From IMG/VR virus record IMGVR_UViG_2703718787_000005: a stretch of DNA of 4,733 nucleotides; one strand, written 5' to 3'. Positions 1-3,092 of the stretch are shown here, in pieces. The notes below the pieces were generated by a model. That model was given only the letters and a program-made list of their open reading frames with translations, was not told where the DNA came from and did not search any database. A program made the translations under genes and the position numbers. Position 1 is the stretch's first letter. The number at the start of each line of letters is the position of its first letter. This DNA is from a virus. Its lineage: Duplodnaviria; Heunggongvirae; Uroviricota; Caudoviricetes.

Positions 1-177
1 TGACCTCATTTCCCCTTAACGCCGGGGTAGCGGAACAAAAACCTGCTGCATAGTTATTAAAGTTGAACCCTGCCGTCATGTTCTTACGCCTCGGGCTGGC
101 TACTTAACCCCTGACCACTGCCTGGTAACTCGAAGTATTGCCTGGCGTTCTGTGGGGCGGGGTGGGTTGATGAAATA

Positions 178-206
178 ATGATGCACTTTTAAAGTTATGA
201 TGTCAA
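178..206 (-). promoter_or_regulatory. pL-like early leftward promoter (candidate): -35 TTGACA (minus strand, plus coords 206..201), 17-bp spacer, -10 CATCAT (183..178)
   Basis: Seen in sequence: plus-strand TGTCAA at 201-206 is a perfect TTGACA on the minus strand; 17 bp further along is CATCAT (4/6 to TATAAT, with A2 and T6 kept). Operator copies sit in the spacer and just upstream of -35. Orientation and position match lambda pL by inference only. Confidence 0.4.
184..196. promoter_or_regulatory. Operator copy oL-a, CACTTTTAAAGTT (core palindrome ACTTTnAAAGT), inside the pL-like spacer
   Basis: Exact reverse complement of the 13-mer at 1246-1258 in the repressor/cro intergenic region. The core 185-195 is a perfect 11-bp palindrome around a central base. 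Flanked on both sides by ATGATG (178-183 and 197-202). Confidence 0.55.
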
Positions 207-219
207 CACTTATAAAGTT
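207..219. promoter_or_regulatory. Operator copy oL-b, CACTTATAAAGTT (12/13 to oL-a), abutting the pL-like -35
   Basis: One mismatch to the 184-196 13-mer, same orientation, 23 bp downstream of it (start to start, equal to centre to centre). Confidence 0.5.
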
Positions 220-228
220 AGCTTTTGA

Positions 229-258
229 TCAATAAAAACCGCCTCGTGTGAAGCGGTT
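229..258 (-). terminator. Rho-independent terminator candidate downstream of the toxin gene
   Basis: Minus-strand RNA would form a 6-bp stem AACCGC/GCGGUU (plus 237-242 pairing with 253-258) with a 10-nt loop, followed by UUUUUAUU (plus 229-236). No U-tract in the plus direction, so it is unidirectional. It starts 17 nt after the toxin stop. The loop is large, so strength is uncertain. Confidence 0.45.
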
Positions 259-274
259 CTGCGAAAAAAGAGGA

Positions 275-556
275 TTATCCAGGAAATTGTCGTCTGGAGT
301 GGGTGACACTTACTATTTCAACACTCGAAGCGGCTACACGGTACAGAATGATATAGTTAGGATGAGCTACAATCTCACGCAAGCCAAACGCTCTGTCGCT
401 TGATGGGTATAAGTACGGATGTTCAGATAAAGCTAAAACACATGTCTCAATGCGAATCTTTAGCCTGCGTGCGGCATGGAGATTTTCTTTTGCAATATAG
501 GCTACGATCTGACGTAAATCATCACGTGCAGAAGGTAGCCATAAAATGGGCAGCAT
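275..556 (-). CDS. parE2: Type II toxin, ParE/RelE superfamily (ParE-like), 93 aa
   Basis: ORF track protein MLPILWLPSARDDLRQIVAYIAKEN...EIVAHPNYIILYRVAASSVEIVSVTHSRRQFPG has the length and motif pattern I associate with ParE toxins (N-terminal DL..I..YIA, central EHPYLYP, C-terminal YIILYRV...VEI..V.H.RR). Its ATG overlaps the upstream antitoxin stop by one base (TAATG at 558..554). The symbol rests on remembered resemblance to the paaA2-parE2 pair of E. coli O157 prophage; no alignment was run. Confidence 0.85.
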   Translation of the reverse strand: MLPILWLPSARDDLRQIVAYIAKENLHAARRLKIRIETCVLALSEHPYLYPSSDRAFGLREIVAHPNYIILYRVAASSVEIVSVTHSRRQFPG

Positions 557-747
557 TACACACTCCCGCTAGTCGCAGCAATTTGGGCAATGAGATTTTC
601 CATTTCTGCCATTACATCATCATGAGGAATTGCAGGGCGCGGATCTGCAAGATTTGCAGCTACTTTTGCACGTAGCCATTCGTTGTAATTATTTTCTTGC
701 TCAACGGTTTCAAACTCAGAAACCATCGGCGAAAGGGCAGTGTTCAT
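556..747 (-). CDS. paaA2: Type II antitoxin, PaaA2/ParD-like, 63 aa (MNTALSPMVSEFETVEQENNYNEWLRAKV...)
   Basis: I trimmed the 84-aa track ORF to the internal ATG at 747..745, which has a strong RBS (AAGGAGGT, 5-nt spacer). The longer version would overlap the repressor 3' end out of frame and has no RBS. The first ~45 residues match my recollection of PaaA2 antitoxin; the C-terminal ~18 residues do not match what I remember. The stop overlaps the toxin start. Confidence 0.8.
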   Translation of the reverse strand: MNTALSPMVSEFETVEQENNYNEWLRAKVAANLADPRPAIPHDDVMAEMENLIAQIAATSGSV

Positions 748-776
748 AACATACCTCCTTTGGCTTATGATGTAGA

Positions 777-1184
777 CTATGCTCGGTGCCCTTTCTGGGC
801 AGCGAGCCATCTTGCAACAGTGCGCTCCATTGATTCTTTTTTGTCTTTCATGTCTTTAAGCATTTTTTCTTGATCTTCCTCTGGAAATGCTCCGAATGTT
901 TGAAGCAGTTCCATTTGCCTGGGGCCTATTTTCATAGTATCTGGCACCACAACCTGCTCTTCTTCGTTTGGCGGTAACATAAACCAATATGGGGGATAAC
1001 CCGTTACTTCAGAAAGTTTATCAAGATTAGCTGTTGATGGACTTGTGATTCCGTGAACCCACTTTTGTACCGATTGCTGGGCAACACCAATCCTGCGGGC
1101 TAGTTCTGCCTGCTTAAGTCCTGTTTTTTCCAGTACCAATTTTATTCGGTACGTGGTTATTTCAAGGGTGGTCATTCGCTTCAT
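777..1184 (-). CDS. paaR2: Prophage repressor, XRE-family HTH, cI analogue (PaaR2-like), 135 aa, no S24/LexA-like autocleavage domain
   Basis: N-terminal HTH (LEKTGLKQAELARRIGVAQQSVQKWVHG). Divergent from the cro-like gene across a 107-bp operator/promoter region. At 135 aa it is too short for a peptidase S24 domain, and no Ala-Gly / GDSM-type motifs are visible. No Shine-Dalgarno precedes the ATG, so it may be leaderless. The symbol is inferred from gene context and is not verified. Confidence 0.8.
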   Translation of the reverse strand: MKRMTTLEITTYRIKLVLEKTGLKQAELARRIGVAQQSVQKWVHGITSPSTANLDKLSEVTGYPPYWFMLPPNEEEQVVVPDTMKIGPRQMELLQTFGAFPEEDQEKMLKDMKDKKESMERTVARWLAAQKGHRA

Positions 1185-1190
1185 GCATTC

Positions 1191-1219
1191 ATTTTACATA
1201 AAAAAAGTGTAACTAGCAC
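1191..1219 (-). promoter_or_regulatory. pRM-like maintenance promoter (candidate) giving a leaderless repressor mRNA: -10 TAAAAT (1196..1191), poor -35 near 1214-1219
   Basis: The minus-strand hexamer TAAAAT ends 7 nt before the repressor ATG (1184), which has no SD. The -35 is weak, as expected for an activator-dependent promoter. By inference this is the lambda pRM arrangement. Confidence 0.3.
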
Positions 1220-1222
1220 AAT

Positions 1223-1235
1223 CAGCTTAAAGGTG
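1223..1235. promoter_or_regulatory. Weaker operator-like site (oR2-like), CAGCTTAAAGGTG, 9/13 to the operator 13-mer
   Basis: Centre at 1229, 23 bp from the oR1-like centre at 1252 and about 45 bp upstream of the putative pRM start. That is the position from which lambda CI activates pRM. Degenerate, so speculative. Confidence 0.3.
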
Positions 1236-1264
1236 TTGATAAACTAACTTTAAAAGTGTATAAA
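1236..1264 (+). promoter_or_regulatory. pR-like early rightward promoter: -35 TTGATA (1236-1241), 17-bp spacer, -10 TATAAA (1259-1264)
   Basis: Near-consensus sigma70 elements with ideal spacing, about 28 nt upstream of the cro-like ATG; an operator sits in the spacer. Confidence 0.6.
1246..1258. promoter_or_regulatory. Operator oR1-like, AACTTTAAAAGTG (core palindrome ACTTTnAAAGT), inside the pR spacer
   Basis: Identical 13-mer, in inverted orientation, to 184-196; the core 1247-1257 is a perfect palindrome around a central base. Confidence 0.6.
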
Positions 1265-1291
1265 TCATGGTGATTCACTGGAGATAACGAT

Positions 1292-1558
1292 ATGCATGAA
1301 TGTTTAAAAAATAAAATTCACCAAAGAGGGTTATCCCAAGCAGGTATTGCTCGTTTGATTGGATTACCGCAACAGGTTGTGTCTCGATGGGCTAATGGTC
1401 AGCAGGTCCCTGCATCAAGGGTTCTGCAACTTTGTGAGATTATGGCGTGGGAGGTTACCCCCCACGAACTCCGACCTGATATTTATCCTAACCCAACAGA
1501 CGGCTTGCCTGCTGAGTTTCAGACTAGCACACAGCCAGCGACGGGAGTTGATTCATGA
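1292..1558 (+). CDS. ydaS: Cro-like HTH regulator, YdaS family, 88 aa
   Basis: SD GGAG 8 nt upstream. HTH (GLSQAGIARLIGLPQQVVSRWANG) followed by the ...ELRPDIYP... motif I associate with YdaS-family Cro analogues of Rac-type prophages. Divergent from the repressor. The stop overlaps the next start (ATGA). Confidence 0.8.
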   Translation: MHECLKNKIHQRGLSQAGIARLIGLPQQVVSRWANGQQVPASRVLQLCEIMAWEVTPHELRPDIYPNPTDGLPAEFQTSTQPATGVDS

Positions 1559-1980
1559 AAATCAAGCATGAGCACATCCGCATGGCGATGAATGCCTGGG
1601 CATATCCTGACGGTGAGAAGGTGCCAGCTGCTGCTATTGCCAGAGCGTATTTTGAACTGGGGATGACATATCCCGAGTTGCACAACGACGACAGGCACAA
1701 CGCGCTCTATCTCAACACCCAAAAGATTTTCCGTTGGCTGGATAAAGACACTCCTGATGCTGTTGAGAAAATTCAGGCATTGTTACCGGCGATCGAAAGG
1801 GCAATGCCACCTCCGCTGGTAGCCCGAATGCGCAGCCACAGTTCCGCTTATTTTCGGGAGCTGGTGGAGACGCAGGAACGGCTAGTGAAAGATATCGATG
1901 ATTTCGTTGCATCAGCGATCGTTCTGTTCGACCAGATGAATCGTGGTGGTCCGGCGGGTAATTCCGTGGCTGTGCATTGA
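1555..1980 (+). CDS. ydaT: YdaT-family protein (annotated in databases as 'toxin YdaT'; functionally a CII analogue), 141 aa
   Basis: Starts MKIKHEHI, as I recall for Rac YdaT. SD GGGAG 7 nt upstream. ATGA overlap with the cro-like gene. It sits where lambda has cII. Confidence 0.8.
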   Translation: MKIKHEHIRMAMNAWAYPDGEKVPAAAIARAYFELGMTYPELHNDDRHNALYLNTQKIFRWLDKDTPDAVEKIQALLPAIERAMPPPLVARMRSHSSAYFRELVETQERLVKDIDDFVASAIVLFDQMNRGGPAGNSVAVH

Positions 1981-2051: not shown

Positions 2052-3092
2052 ATGGCTAATGCCTGGCTCAGATTATGGCATGACATGCCAAATGACCCTA
2101 AGTGGCGAACAATTTCCAGGGTGTCAGGACAGCCAATCGCAACAGTGATGGCTGTGTATATCCACCTTCTGGTGAGCGCGTCACGAAATGTCACGACATG
2201 TCACGGCGTGTCACTACGTGGTCACATTGATGTCACAACGGAAGATTTAGCAAGTGCACTTGATGTGACGGAAGAAGTAATTGATTCAATTTTGCAGGCG
2301 ATGCAGGGGCGGGTGCTTGATGGAGATTTAATCACTGGATGGGAAAAACGCCAGGTAGCGAAAGAGGATAACGGCAACGTTTCGCAAACCGCGAAATCCC
2401 CGGCAGAGCGTAAGAGAGCACAACGCGAGAGGGAAAAATTACGAAAACAGAATGAGGGGTGTCACGATGAGTCACGCATATGTCACGACATGTCACTACG
2501 AGTCACGACAGATAAAGATACAGATAAAGAATTAAACCCCACACATAACGCGCGCATGCGCGAGAGTGCTCCAACCGGTGAGTCGCATGGTGCGCCGTTG
2601 CAGACAGCCGAACCTGAATACCTGGACGGCCTGAGCGAACCGATCGGGAAATTTTCGATGACTACTGTCTGGCAGCCGTCGTCGGATTTTCGACAACGGG
2701 CAGCAGTGTGGGGTATGGCTCTGCCTGAGCCGGAATTTACACCTGCAGAGCTTGCCGCATTCCGGGATTACTGGATGGCGGAGGGGAAGGTTTTCACGCA
2801 GGTTCAGTGGGAGCAGAAATTTGCCCGCCACGTGCAGCACGTCAGGGCACAGGTAAAACCAGTCAGCAAGGGGGTAAACCATGCAGCAGCACCAGGTGGC
2901 ACCGCATCACGGGCAGTTCAGGAAATTCGGGCAGCACGTGAGCAGTGGGAACGTGAAAACGGATTTATCAGCGACGGAAACGGCCTGGAAGCTGTGGGAG
3001 CTTATGGGGGAGGTGTATTCGAACCGCTGGACTCAGAAGAACGGGGCCGCACCTTCGAAGCTCTGGATTGCCCAGATTGGTGCGATGACTGA
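2052..3092 (+). CDS. Replication initiator (lambda O analogue): replisome-organizer-type N-terminal domain, linker, DnaT-like C-terminal domain
   Basis: I take the start at ATG 2052 (SD AAGAGGTGA upstream); the track ORF begins at an in-frame GTG at 2046. N-terminal motifs W.RLWHDMPNDPKW ... TGWEKRQ resemble the phage replisome organizer N-terminal domain. The C-terminal part (FSMTTVWQPSSDF...FTPAELAAFRDYWMAEGKVFT) resembles the DnaT-like domain common in phage initiators. Two iteron arrays lie inside the gene. Family assignments are from memory. Confidence 0.8.
   Translation: MANAWLRLWHDMPNDPKWRTISRVSGQPIATVMAVYIHLLVSASRNVTTCHGVSLRGHIDVTTEDLASALDVTEEVIDSILQAMQGRVLDGDLITGWEKRQVAKEDNGNVSQTAKSPAERKRAQREREKLRKQNEGCHDESRICHDMSLRVTTDKDTDKELNPTHNARMRESAPTGESHGAPLQTAEPEYLDGLSEPIGKFSMTTVWQPSSDFRQRAAVWGMALPEPEFTPAELAAFRDYWMAEGKVFTQVQWEQKFARHVQHVRAQVKPVSKGVNHAAAPGGTASRAVQEIRAAREQWERENGFISDGNGLEAVGAYGGGVFEPLDSEERGRTFEALDCPDWCDD
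2180..2236. repeat. Iteron array 1: six direct GTCAC-containing repeats at 10/10/10/11/11-bp spacing
   Basis: GTCAC starts at 2180, 2190, 2200, 2210, 2221 and 2232, all in the same orientation and on a helical-repeat period, inside the N-terminal domain coding region. Shares an exact 17-mer with array 2. Confidence 0.7.
2461..2506. repeat. Iteron array 2: five direct GTCAC-containing repeats at 10/11/10/10-bp spacing
   Basis: GTCAC starts at 2461, 2471, 2482, 2492 and 2502, in the linker-coding region of the initiator. This is the position where lambda ori lies within O. Confidence 0.75.
2461..2562. other. Probable origin of replication: iteron array 2, then an AT-rich stretch with GATAAAGA x2 (2509-2536), then a 12-bp perfect palindrome CGCGCATGCGCG (2551-2562)
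   Basis: The iterons / AT-rich / palindrome order is what I recall for lambda ori, but that is recollection. All three elements are directly visible in the sequence. Confidence 0.5.

What the first reader, a model, noticed from the sequence alone, without database searches (positions are those of the whole stretch)
275..1184. ParE-family toxin and antitoxin sit in the rexAB slot, apparently co-transcribed with the prophage repressor
Seen in sequence: repressor stop (777) and antitoxin ATG (747) are 29 bp apart on the same strand. The antitoxin has a strong RBS, but I find no convincing -35/-10 pair in 750-850. The antitoxin stop and toxin start overlap (TAATG), and a hairpin plus U-tract follows the toxin. 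Established: in lambda this slot, transcribed from pRM in lysogens, holds the rexA-rexB exclusion genes; a regulator-antitoxin-ParE operon (paaR2-paaA2-parE2) with YdaS/YdaT as switch partners is described for an E. coli O157 cryptic prophage. Inference: toxin and antitoxin dosage is tied to the lysogenic state, so the pair could serve prophage maintenance or exclusion of superinfecting phage. I think this is a homologue of a described system, not a new one.
Basis: partly seen in the sequence, partly recalled or inferred. Interest (0 to 1): 0.55.

Follow-up and report, generated by a model that had tools for sequence, protein, structure and literature searches.

The report
Prophage repressor–antitoxin–ParE toxin operon
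This is another copy of an already described arrangement in E. coli lambda-like prophages, where a ParE-type toxin and its small antitoxin sit just after the prophage repressor gene and are read with it; the call is correct but ordinary.

Summary
On the minus strand lie a 135-aa HTH repressor (777-1184), a 29-bp gap with an AGGAGG ribosome-binding site, a 63-aa PaaA2-family antitoxin (556-747) and a 93-aa ParE toxin (275-556, TAATG overlap). A hairpin with a U-tract follows (231-260).

The trio sits between two inverted copies of one promoter-operator module. These are OL/PL at 178-219 and OR/PR at 1223-1264, so this is positionally the lambda rexAB slot. ydaS, ydaT and an exact YdaT operator (1548-1565) lie to the right.

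The same architecture has been characterised experimentally for paaR2-paaA2-parE2 of prophage CP-933P. [quoted passage not shown]

The window copy is a different allele:
- The toxin is 68% identical to ParE2 and 87% to the second O157:H7 paralogue.
- The repressor has a DicA-like N-terminal domain and different operators.

The exact proteins already occur on about 800 public contigs with toxin-antitoxin annotations. Co-transcription and the addiction function are inferred by homology, not shown here. A role in phage exclusion is untested. This is a new member of a known kind, of low interest.

The parts
178..206 (-). PL-like promoter (TTGACA-17-CATCAT) reading leftward, away from the TA operon and towards ydfA/dicB
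   Evidence: Found by the consensus scan with 10 of 12 matches and by my PWM scan at 12 bits. It is the inverted copy of the PR module (I1/I2). In L001 the next leftward gene is DUF1391/ydfA.
184..219 (.). OL: two operator copies, CACTTTTAAAGTT (184-196) and CACTTATAAAGTT (207-219), spaced 23 bp apart
   Evidence: (D5). The only four matches to CACTTTWAAAGTG in the whole window are these two and the two in OR.
231..260 (-). Intrinsic terminator that ends the repressor-antitoxin-toxin operon (a t_imm analogue)
   Evidence: Fold at -18.1 kcal/mol, z = -3.6. A hairpin sits just after the toxin stop in all four variant loci despite unrelated sequence; L002, L003 and L004 also have a U-tract, L005 does not.
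275..556 (-). ParE-family toxin, 93 aa
   Evidence: Pfam PF05016 at 3.6e-16. PDB ParE2 5cw7 at 2e-36, aligned over residues 1-92. 87% identical to the L002 toxin and 68% to ParE2.
556..747 (-). PaaA2-family antitoxin, 63 aa, with no DNA-binding domain. Its stop overlaps the toxin start (TAATG at 554-558).
   Evidence: Pfam PF21217 at 3.3e-20. NCBIfam NF050103 at 88 bits against a cut-off of 50. PDB 3zbe at 4e-23.
748..776 (-). 29-bp junction carrying the SD AGGAGG (754-759), with no terminator and no usable promoter
   Evidence: The homologous junctions measure 17-29 bp in four other immunity variants.
777..1184 (-). CI-like prophage repressor of the PaaR/DicA type. It has an HTH_3 N-terminal domain and a conserved C-terminal ~60-aa domain, and no S24 peptidase domain.
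   Evidence: Pfam HTH_3 at 5.6e-14. NCBIfam DicA model aligned over 12-131 at 1.1e-15, below its cut-off. 28% identical to K-12 DicA, including the C-terminal domain. 66% identical to the L002 repressor, and 49% to PaaR2 over the last 61 aa only.
1191..1219 (-). PRM-like promoter (GTGCTA-17-TAAAAT). The -10 ends 6 nt before ATG 1184, which predicts a leaderless repressor mRNA.
   Evidence: PWM scan. The spacing of -10, 6-7 nt and ATG is kept in L003, L002 and L004, and in L005, which is CP-933P. In CP-933P, 5' RACE placed the transcription start on the ATG (PMC8630535).
1223..1258 (.). OR: operator copies at 1223-1235 and 1246-1258, spaced 23 bp apart. A possible degenerate third copy lies at about 1199-1211.
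   Evidence: The third site is seen by eye only: its right half AAAGTG is kept and its left half is not.
1236..1264 (+). PR-like promoter (TTGATA-17-TATAAA) driving ydaS-ydaT
   Evidence: PWM scan at 10.3 bits. It is the inverted copy of PL.
1292..1558 (+). YdaS (Cro analogue)
   Evidence: Pfam YdaS_toxin at 1.3e-10 and HTH_3. Function is assigned by homology to CP-933P YdaS (PMC8630535).
1548..1565 (.). YdaT operator OM, TTGATTcatgaaAATCAA, at the ydaS/ydaT junction. It marks the PRE-like second promoter for the leftward operon.
   Evidence: An exact match to the published TTGATTN6AATCAA site (PMC9986795). Window 1544-1604 is almost invariant across four immunity variants, including at synonymous sites.
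1555..1980 (+). YdaT (CII analogue)
   Evidence: Pfam YdaT_toxin at 3.8e-9. PHROG 163, 'CII-like transcriptional activator', at 1e-42. 79% identical to CP-933P YdaT.

Best explanation
The region is the immunity region of a lambdoid E. coli prophage. A two-gene PaaA-ParE toxin-antitoxin cassette sits as cargo between the CI-like repressor gene and OL/PL, the position that rexAB holds in lambda.

Proposed mechanism:
- One leftward transcript carries repressor, antitoxin and toxin. It probably starts leaderless at A1184 from a PRM-like promoter. It is also probably made from a YdaT-activated PRE-like promoter near 1548-1620. It ends at the hairpin at 231-260.
- The antitoxin is translated from its own strong SD. 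The toxin is translationally coupled to it through the TAATG overlap.
- The antitoxin has no DNA-binding domain, so all transcriptional control comes from the prophage switch. The repressor and YdaS compete at OR and OL, and YdaT acts at OM.
- The free toxin is a ParE-type poison that is nucleoid-associated and induces SOS, with a topoisomerase as the suspected target. The labile antitoxin neutralises it.
- Losing or replacing the immunity region therefore kills or arrests the cell. The pair most likely acts as an addiction module that stabilises the prophage immunity region.

Shown here: gene identities, geometry, operators, promoter-like sites, the terminator and conservation across variants. 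Inferred by homology to CP-933P: co-transcription, the leaderless start, regulation, toxicity, antitoxin lability and addiction.
For: Operon geometry:
- The gap is 29 bp and carries only an SD, and no promoter or terminator lies between the genes.
- The gaps are 17-29 bp in five immunity variants.
- A hairpin sits just after the toxin stop in all five loci, with a U-tract in four, even though the sequences are unrelated.

Position in the switch:
- The block is bracketed by inverted promoter-operator modules.
- The -10 to ATG spacing matches that of CP-933P paaR2, whose leaderless start was mapped experimentally (PMC8630535).
- An exact YdaT operator is present, and the PRE region around it is almost invariant (PMC9986795).

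Published experiments on the homologue cover the operon, PaaR2 repression, ClpAP/ClpXP-labile PaaA2, SOS induction by ParE2 and plasmid stabilisation by the locus (PMC8630535).

Cargo status:
- K-12 Qin has a DicA-type repressor followed directly by ydfA, with nothing in the slot.
- In 78 of 80 toxin homologues from other Proteobacteria, a PaaA-like antitoxin lies immediately upstream, with no PaaR, YdaS or YdaT nearby.
- The same repressor type occurs with a different TA allele in L003 and in hits H92-H97.
Against: - No transcript data exist for this allele.
- A promoter-like site, TTGAAA-15-TAAAAT at 1165->1139, lies inside the repressor ORF. It scores 12.9 bits and only 0.7% of shuffles reach that score. 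Its spacer is 15 nt, it is not kept in L002, and a transcript from it would still be repressor-proximal.
- In CP-933P the TA reporter was expressed in both switch states (PMC8630535). TA dosage is therefore not simply a readout of lysogeny, and a weak constitutive promoter cannot be excluded.
- The molecular target of this ParE subfamily is not established (PMC8630535).
- L006 shows that the toxin can be lost while the repressor stays, so addiction is not absolute.
Confidence: 0.8

Rival explanations
1. The TA pair is an autonomous module with its own promoter. It is adjacent to the repressor gene but not co-transcribed with it.
For: Stand-alone PaaA-ParE cassettes in other Proteobacteria must have their own promoters. 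The CP-933P TA reporter is expressed in both switch states (PMC8630535). A weak match, TCTACA-17-TATGTT, lies in the gap.
Against: The gap is only 29 bp, and 17-29 bp in the homologues. The only match in the gap would start transcription downstream of the antitoxin ATG. No minus-strand promoter passes the consensus scan in 748-1184. No terminator separates the genes. The homologous genes form an operon experimentally (PMC8630535).
Confidence: 0.08
2. The main job of the pair is abortive infection or exclusion of superinfecting phages, as for RexAB or BstA in the same slot, rather than addiction. An invader that shuts off host transcription or degrades the antitoxin would free ParE.
For: The slot between cI and PL is a known hotspot for prophage defence cargo expressed from the repressor promoter (PMC8585504). 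The antitoxin homologue is protease-labile (PMC8630535).
Against: PADLOC has no model that matches the toxin or the antitoxin. No exclusion phenotype has been reported for PaaA-ParE in the papers read. Addiction has been shown experimentally for the homologue (PMC8630535). The two roles are not mutually exclusive.
Confidence: 0.2
3. The toxin is a RelE-type ribosome-dependent mRNA interferase rather than a ParE-type poison.
For: RefSeq names it a 'RelE/ParE family toxin' and names the antitoxin 'RelB family'. There is a weak NCBIfam RelE_StbE match.
Against: The RelE_StbE score of 23 bits is below its cut-off of 27.9. All four PDB matches are deposited as ParE or 'plasmid stabilization system' proteins, none as RelE. 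The toxin is 68% identical to ParE2, which localises to the nucleoid and induces SOS (PMC8630535).
Confidence: 0.05
4. The cassette is a decaying, non-functional remnant in a cryptic prophage.
For: Many such prophages are defective. One relative, L006, has lost the toxin and most of the antitoxin.
Against: Both ORFs are full length against the crystal-structure homologues. The SD, the TAATG coupling and the terminator are all intact. Identical proteins occur on about 800 contigs.
Confidence: 0.04

Closest known systems
paaR2-paaA2-parE2 with ydaS-ydaT, cryptic prophage CP-933P of E. coli O157:H7 (Hallez 2010, as cited in PMC8630535; PMC8630535; PMC9986795). Represented here by L005.
   Same: The gene order and strands are the same. 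So are the short repressor-antitoxin gap, the overlapping antitoxin and toxin genes, the OL/PL and OR/PR bracketing, the -10 to ATG spacing of the leaderless repressor, and the YdaT operator. YdaT is 79% identical, the toxin 68%, and the antitoxin 73% over 56 aa.
   Different: The repressor N-terminal DNA-binding domain is unrelated; only the C-terminal 61 aa align, at 49%. YdaS is only 27% identical. The operator sequence differs: CACTTTWAAAGTG here against the published GTTTAGTAA-type repeats. The toxin N-terminal segment and the antitoxin C-terminal tail belong to a different allele class, with only 42-57% DNA identity over 451-600.
The second O157:H7 paralogue, represented by L002 from EDL933. 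It is presumably paaR1-paaA1-parE1 of CP-933M. I infer that name because PMC8630535 mentions a homologue on CP-933M; the original paper is not in the library.
   Same: This is the closest characterised-strain relative. The toxin is 87% identical, the antitoxin 79%, the repressor 66% over its full length, and YdaT 85%.
   Different: The OR region and the YdaS N-terminal part are not alignable at the DNA level; window 1176-1446 has no match. Immunity specificity therefore probably differs.
Phage lambda cI-rexA-rexB
   Same: Cargo sits between the repressor gene and OL/PL, is transcribed with the repressor from PRM and PRE, and is ended by a terminator. The cargo harms the cell under defined conditions.
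   Different: The proteins and mechanism are unrelated. RexAB is a sensor plus a membrane-channel abortive-infection pair. Here the cargo is a type II TA pair, and the repressor lacks the S24 autocleavage domain.
DicA/DicC switch of the cryptic prophage Qin (E. coli K-12)
   Same: The repressor is in the same family: 28% identical over the whole length including the C-terminal domain, and the NCBIfam DicA model aligns over 12-131. The leftward ydfA-ydfB...dicB operon is the same.
   Different: In Qin the slot is empty, with 166 bp between dicA and ydfA.
Canonical ParD-ParE (RK2 or Vibrio cholerae ParDE2)
   Same: The toxin is a ParE-fold protein, and it is neutralised by the C-terminal part of a small labile antitoxin.
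   Different: ParD carries an N-terminal DNA-binding domain and autoregulates its own operon. PaaA-type antitoxins have no such domain, and regulation is handed over to the prophage repressor.
BstA of prophage BTP1 (PMC8585504)
   Same: It is accessory cargo immediately downstream of the prophage repressor and presumably shares the repressor's promoter.
   Different: BstA is a single abortive-infection protein with a DNA-based self-immunity element. It has no sequence relationship to this pair.

Membership tests
ParE toxin family (Pfam PF05016; ParE2 subfamily) | Sequence match above the curated threshold over the whole domain | tested here: met
   59.9 bits against a cut-off of 23, covering profile positions 1-89 of 89.
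ParE toxin family (Pfam PF05016; ParE2 subfamily) | Full-length similarity to a structurally solved ParE | tested here: met
   PDB 5cw7 ParE2, E = 2e-36, residues 1-92 aligned to 1-92 without gaps. 68% identity.
ParE toxin family (Pfam PF05016; ParE2 subfamily) | Toxicity (growth arrest, SOS induction, topoisomerase poisoning) relieved by the cognate antitoxin | not testable with these tools
   Known only for the homologue ParE2 (PMC8630535).
PaaA2 antitoxin family (Pfam PF21217) | Sequence match above the curated threshold | tested here: met
   Pfam at 72.2 bits against 27. NCBIfam NF050103 at 88.2 bits against 50. PDB 3zbe at E = 4e-23.
PaaA2 antitoxin family (Pfam PF21217) | A short protein with no DNA-binding domain, encoded immediately upstream of the toxin and overlapping it | tested here: met
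   It is 63 aa. Residues 2-55 align to PaaA2 and no other domain is detected. The TAATG overlap is visible in the sequence.
Three-component PaaR-PaaA-ParE operon in a lambdoid immunity region | A regulator gene directly upstream on the same strand, with a gap too short for a promoter or terminator | tested here: met
   The gap is 29 bp and holds an SD only. The gaps are 17-29 bp in four variants.
Three-component PaaR-PaaA-ParE operon in a lambdoid immunity region | The regulator is homologous to PaaR | tested here: inconclusive
   The C-terminal 61 aa are 49% identical to PaaR2 (E = 1e-18), but the N-terminal DNA-binding domain is not alignable. Over its full length the repressor is 66% identical to the other O157:H7 paralogue.
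Three-component PaaR-PaaA-ParE operon in a lambdoid immunity region | Divergent ydaS-ydaT with a YdaT operator, TTGATTN6AATCAA, at the ydaS/ydaT junction | tested here: met
   The exact site lies at 1548-1565.
Three-component PaaR-PaaA-ParE operon in a lambdoid immunity region | Repeated operators at both OR and a distal OL/PL located beyond the toxin gene | tested here: met
   A 35-nt inverted repeat pairs 181-215 with 1227-1261. All four operator matches in the window fall in these two regions.
Three-component PaaR-PaaA-ParE operon in a lambdoid immunity region | A single transcript covering the three genes, with a leaderless repressor mRNA | not testable with these tools
   Only the geometry could be checked. 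The -10 TAAAAT ends 6 nt before ATG 1184, the same spacing as at the mapped CP-933P start (PMC8630535).
Lambda rexAB-slot cargo (positional class, not a protein family) | Located between the CI-like repressor gene and OL/PL, on the repressor strand, and closed by a terminator | tested here: met
   PMC9986795 makes the same statement for CP-933P.
Known anti-phage defence systems (PADLOC) | A match of the toxin or the antitoxin to a defence-system model | tested here: not met
   Zero families match either protein. Only the generic HTH of the repressor matches any model.

The most novel reading that the evidence does not exclude
PaaA-ParE cassettes in the cI-PL slot could be a phage-exclusion (abortive-infection) module that works like RexAB or BstA. 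The variable segment (toxin N-terminus plus antitoxin C-terminal tail, window 451-600) would then set cognate specificity, so that co-resident or recombining lambdoid prophages cannot cross-neutralise each other. Supply from both PRM and the YdaT-dependent PRE would act as the prophage's self-immunity during its own switch.
Probability: 0.15. Interest if true: 0.5.

Novelty: new member of a known kind. Interest (0 to 1): 0.2.

Why it matters
It matters little beyond annotation. The result shows that the published CP-933P layout is a general, modular design in E. coli lambdoid prophages. That layout is a TA pair without its own regulator, placed under the prophage lysis-lysogeny switch.

About 15% of complete E. 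coli genomes carry some related copy (842 of 5426). Only 17 carry this particular combination. At least four different repressor specificities are combined with two TA allele classes.

That gives natural material for three tests:
- whether the pair stabilises immunity regions against replacement;
- whether the allele classes are non-cross-neutralising;
- whether such cargo also excludes other phages.

It also suggests that RefSeq's 132-aa start for the repressor is probably three codons too short.

Tried and rejected
1. An RNA hairpin across the repressor stop and the antitoxin SD (inverted repeat 731-757 / 769-795) was considered as a translational-coupling device. Its fold is no better than shuffles (z = -1.26), and the pairing is not kept in L002, L004 or L005. 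Rejected.

2. Internal promoters for the TA. None lies in 748-900. The 1165->1139 match has a 15-nt spacer and is not conserved. Not adopted.

3. The repressor's conserved C-terminal domain was considered as specifically linked to the TA, for example as a co-repressor contact. It is rejected as a necessity. The same domain is in DicA of Qin, which has no TA.

4. A third regulator gene next to the PaaA-ParE cassettes of other Proteobacteria. tblastn with the repressor, YdaS and YdaT found nothing in 80 loci. The upstream ORFs are heterogeneous or spurious.

5. Rfam, at gathering thresholds, over the whole window gave no RNA family.

6. PADLOC gave no defence model for the toxin or the antitoxin.

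7. The PDB holds no solved relative of the repressor's C-terminal domain. Only generic 434/P22 repressor HTH matches appear.

8. The phage collection contains no record covering the TA part at megablast sensitivity. Only the replication and immunity-flank pieces match.
Full report
**1. Observation.** All of the following lie on the minus strand:
- a 135-aa ORF at 777-1184 with its TAG stop at 777-779;
- 29 bp (748-776) containing AGGAGG at 754-759, 6 nt before an ATG at 745-747;
- a 63-aa ORF at 556-747;
- a TAATG stop/start overlap at 554-558;
- a 93-aa ORF at 275-556.

After the toxin stop there is an 11-bp hairpin (235-260) that runs into UUUUUAUU. It folds at -18.1 kcal/mol with z = -3.6, and none of 200 shuffles folds as well.

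The consensus scan finds no minus-strand promoter between 748 and 1184 and no minus-strand terminator between the genes. My relaxed PWM scan finds only a 7-bit match in the gap. Its -10 abuts the antitoxin ATG, so it could not serve that gene.

**2. Identity of the proteins.**
- Toxin: Pfam ParE_toxin at 3.6e-16 over the full profile. It also shows a gap-free, end-to-end alignment to crystallised ParE2 of E. coli O157 (5cw7, E = 2e-36).
- Antitoxin: Pfam PaaA2 at 3.3e-20 and NCBIfam NF050103 at 88 bits against a cut-off of 50. PDB 3zbe (PaaA2) matches at 4e-23. The protein is 63 aa with no DNA-binding domain.
- Repressor: an HTH_3 domain at 5.6e-14. The NCBIfam DicA model aligns over residues 12-131, below its cut-off. 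It is 28% identical to K-12 DicA across both domains. There is no S24 peptidase domain.
- To the right, divergently transcribed, lie YdaS (1292-1558) and YdaT (1555-1980). They are followed by a DnaT-domain O-like gene, a lambda-P-like gene, DUF1627 and DUF977.

**3. The slot.** A 35-nt inverted repeat pairs 181-215 with 1227-1261 at 80% complementarity, and so brackets the three genes. Each arm holds a sigma-70-like promoter:
- TTGACA-17-CATCAT at 206->178, reading leftward;
- TTGATA-17-TATAAA at 1236-1264, reading rightward.

Each arm also holds two copies of CACTTTWAAAGTG spaced 23 bp apart. The only four matches to that motif in the window are at 184, 207, 1223 and 1246. These are the OL/PL and OR/PR equivalents.

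In the nearly identical chromosome locus L001, the next leftward genes are DUF1391/ydfA, ydfB, dicB, exo, xis and int. The prophage lies next to potC. The TA pair therefore lies between the CI-like gene and OL/PL, which is the rexAB position.

K-12 Qin has a DicA repressor of the same family. It is followed after 166 bp by ydfA, with nothing in between. That marks the TA pair as inserted cargo.

**4. Transcription.** The best PRM candidate is GTGCTA-17-TAAAAT at 1219->1191. Its -10 ends 6 nt before ATG 1184. The same spacing of -10, 6-7 nt and ATG is found in L003, L002 and L004, and in L005.

L005 encodes PaaR2 (its product starts MQKKE, the N-terminal sequence published for PaaR2). For PaaR2, 5' RACE and N-terminal sequencing showed a leaderless mRNA that starts on the ATG (PMC8630535). 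I therefore infer a leaderless 135-aa repressor here rather than RefSeq's 132-aa call at 1175. Both versions exist in public annotation.

The published YdaT operator TTGATTN6AATCAA is present exactly at 1548-1565 (PMC9986795). Window 1544-1604 is almost invariant among four immunity variants, even at synonymous positions of ydaT. This fits an embedded PRE-like promoter and operator.

From these points I infer that the repressor-antitoxin-toxin RNA can be made from PRM in the repressor-on state and from PRE in the YdaS/YdaT-on state. That would explain the published finding that the CP-933P TA reporter is expressed in both states (PMC8630535).

The repressor-antitoxin gaps measure 17-29 bp in all five variants. 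A hairpin follows the toxin in all five, with a U-tract in four of them, although the sequences are unrelated. Both facts argue for a conserved three-gene unit.

**5. Relatives and mosaicism.**

| Locus | Toxin | Antitoxin | Repressor | YdaT |
|---|---|---|---|---|
| L005 (PaaR2/PaaA2/ParE2 locus, as in CP-933P) | 68% | 73% | 49%, last 61 aa only | 79% |
| L002 (EDL933, the other O157:H7 paralogue) | 87% | 79% | 66% | 85% |
| L003 | 70% (ParE2-like) | 75% (PaaA2-like) | 88% | 35% |

DNA identity profiles add detail:
- OL, the repressor N-terminal part, OR and ydaS travel together as the immunity module.
- The segment 451-600, which covers the toxin N-terminus and the antitoxin C-terminal tail, forms two allele classes with only 41-57% identity between them.
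- The toxin C-terminus, the antitoxin N-terminus and the repressor C-terminal domain are shared.

In complete E. coli genomes, 842 of 5426 carry some related copy. Only 17 carry this whole combination at 80% coverage or more. The exact toxin and antitoxin proteins occur on about 800 public contigs, already annotated as a RelE/ParE toxin and an antitoxin. One relative, L006, keeps the repressor but has lost the toxin and all but 22 codons of the antitoxin.

Outside Enterobacteriaceae, 78 of 80 toxin homologues (45-72% identity) have a PaaA-like antitoxin immediately upstream. These come from Acetobacteraceae, Bartonella, Acidithiobacillus, Comamonadaceae, Pseudomonas and others. None has a PaaR, YdaS or YdaT homologue nearby. 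The pair is therefore a mobile two-gene cassette that lambdoid prophages captured, as the authors of PMC8630535 suspected.

**6. Comparison with the literature.** PMC8630535 shows the following for CP-933P:
- the three genes form an operon;
- PaaR2 acts like CI, including octamerisation and control of PRM, PR and a PL beyond the toxin;
- YdaS acts like Cro and YdaT like CII;
- the locus is bistable;
- PaaA2 is degraded by ClpAP and ClpXP;
- ParE2 induces SOS;
- the locus stabilises an unstable plasmid.

[quoted passage not shown] PMC8585504 notes that the cI-N interval is a hotspot for cargo such as rexAB and bstA.

What is specific to this window is its allele. It combines a DicA-like repressor N-terminal domain, different operators and a ParE1-class TA.

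**7. Function.** I commit to the addiction or immunity-region-stabilisation role shown for the homologue, with control handed over to the prophage switch. Phage exclusion is an open alternative. PADLOC has no matching model, and none of the papers I read reports such a phenotype. Nothing here can test toxicity, antitoxin lability or transcripts.

**8. Verdict.** This is a new member of a known kind, of low interest (0.2). The remaining value lies in the natural allele and immunity reassortments and in the probable mis-annotated repressor start.

Noticed in passing
window 2176-2240 and 2459-2512: Two clusters of GTCAC(G/A/T) repeats at about 10-11 bp spacing lie inside the DnaT-domain O-like replication gene. 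By eye there are about 6 and 5 copies. All five exact TGTCACR matches in the window fall in these clusters. They look like origin iterons, as in lambda ori inside gene O.
   Followed up: partly
window 1-36 (minus strand): GTTCCGCTACCCCGGCGTTAAGGGGAAATGAGGTCA is almost identical to the sequence just upstream of ydfA in K-12 Qin, although the rest of the PL leader is unrelated. It contains a small CCCC...GGGG hairpin plus the ydfA SD. It may be a conserved leader element of the PL transcript.
   Followed up: no
window 1175-1184: RefSeq annotates the repressor from ATG 1175 (132 aa). The promoter geometry shared with the experimentally mapped paaR2 start points to a leaderless start at ATG 1184 (135 aa).
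   Followed up: partly
window 451-600, compared with L003 and L005: The toxin N-terminal codons and the adjacent antitoxin C-terminal tail form a block that is only 41-57% identical between two allele classes, while its flanks are 74-85% identical. It is a candidate determinant of cognate toxin-antitoxin specificity.
   Followed up: partly
L006 3001-3495 (NZ_CP047378): A related prophage keeps the repressor but retains only the first 22 codons of the antitoxin and has no toxin. This is a natural TA-loss remnant in the same slot.
   Followed up: no
L007-L086: PaaA-ParE pairs at 45-72% toxin identity are widespread in Alpha-, Beta- and Gammaproteobacteria as two-gene cassettes. Their antitoxin is about 63 aa with no DNA-binding domain, and no PaaR, YdaS or YdaT lies nearby. 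How these stand-alone copies are regulated is unclear.
   Followed up: partly
window 1544-1604: About 60 nt spanning the end of ydaS and the first ~16 codons of ydaT are nearly invariant across four immunity variants, including at synonymous sites. Divergence resumes downstream. This fits an embedded PRE promoter and YdaT operator.
   Followed up: partly
window 1139-1165 (minus strand): A promoter-like TTGAAA-15-TAAAAT lies inside the 5' part of the repressor ORF. It is the best PWM score in the ORF, reached by 0.7% of shuffles. It is kept in L003 but not in L002, and its 15-nt spacer makes function doubtful.
   Followed up: partly
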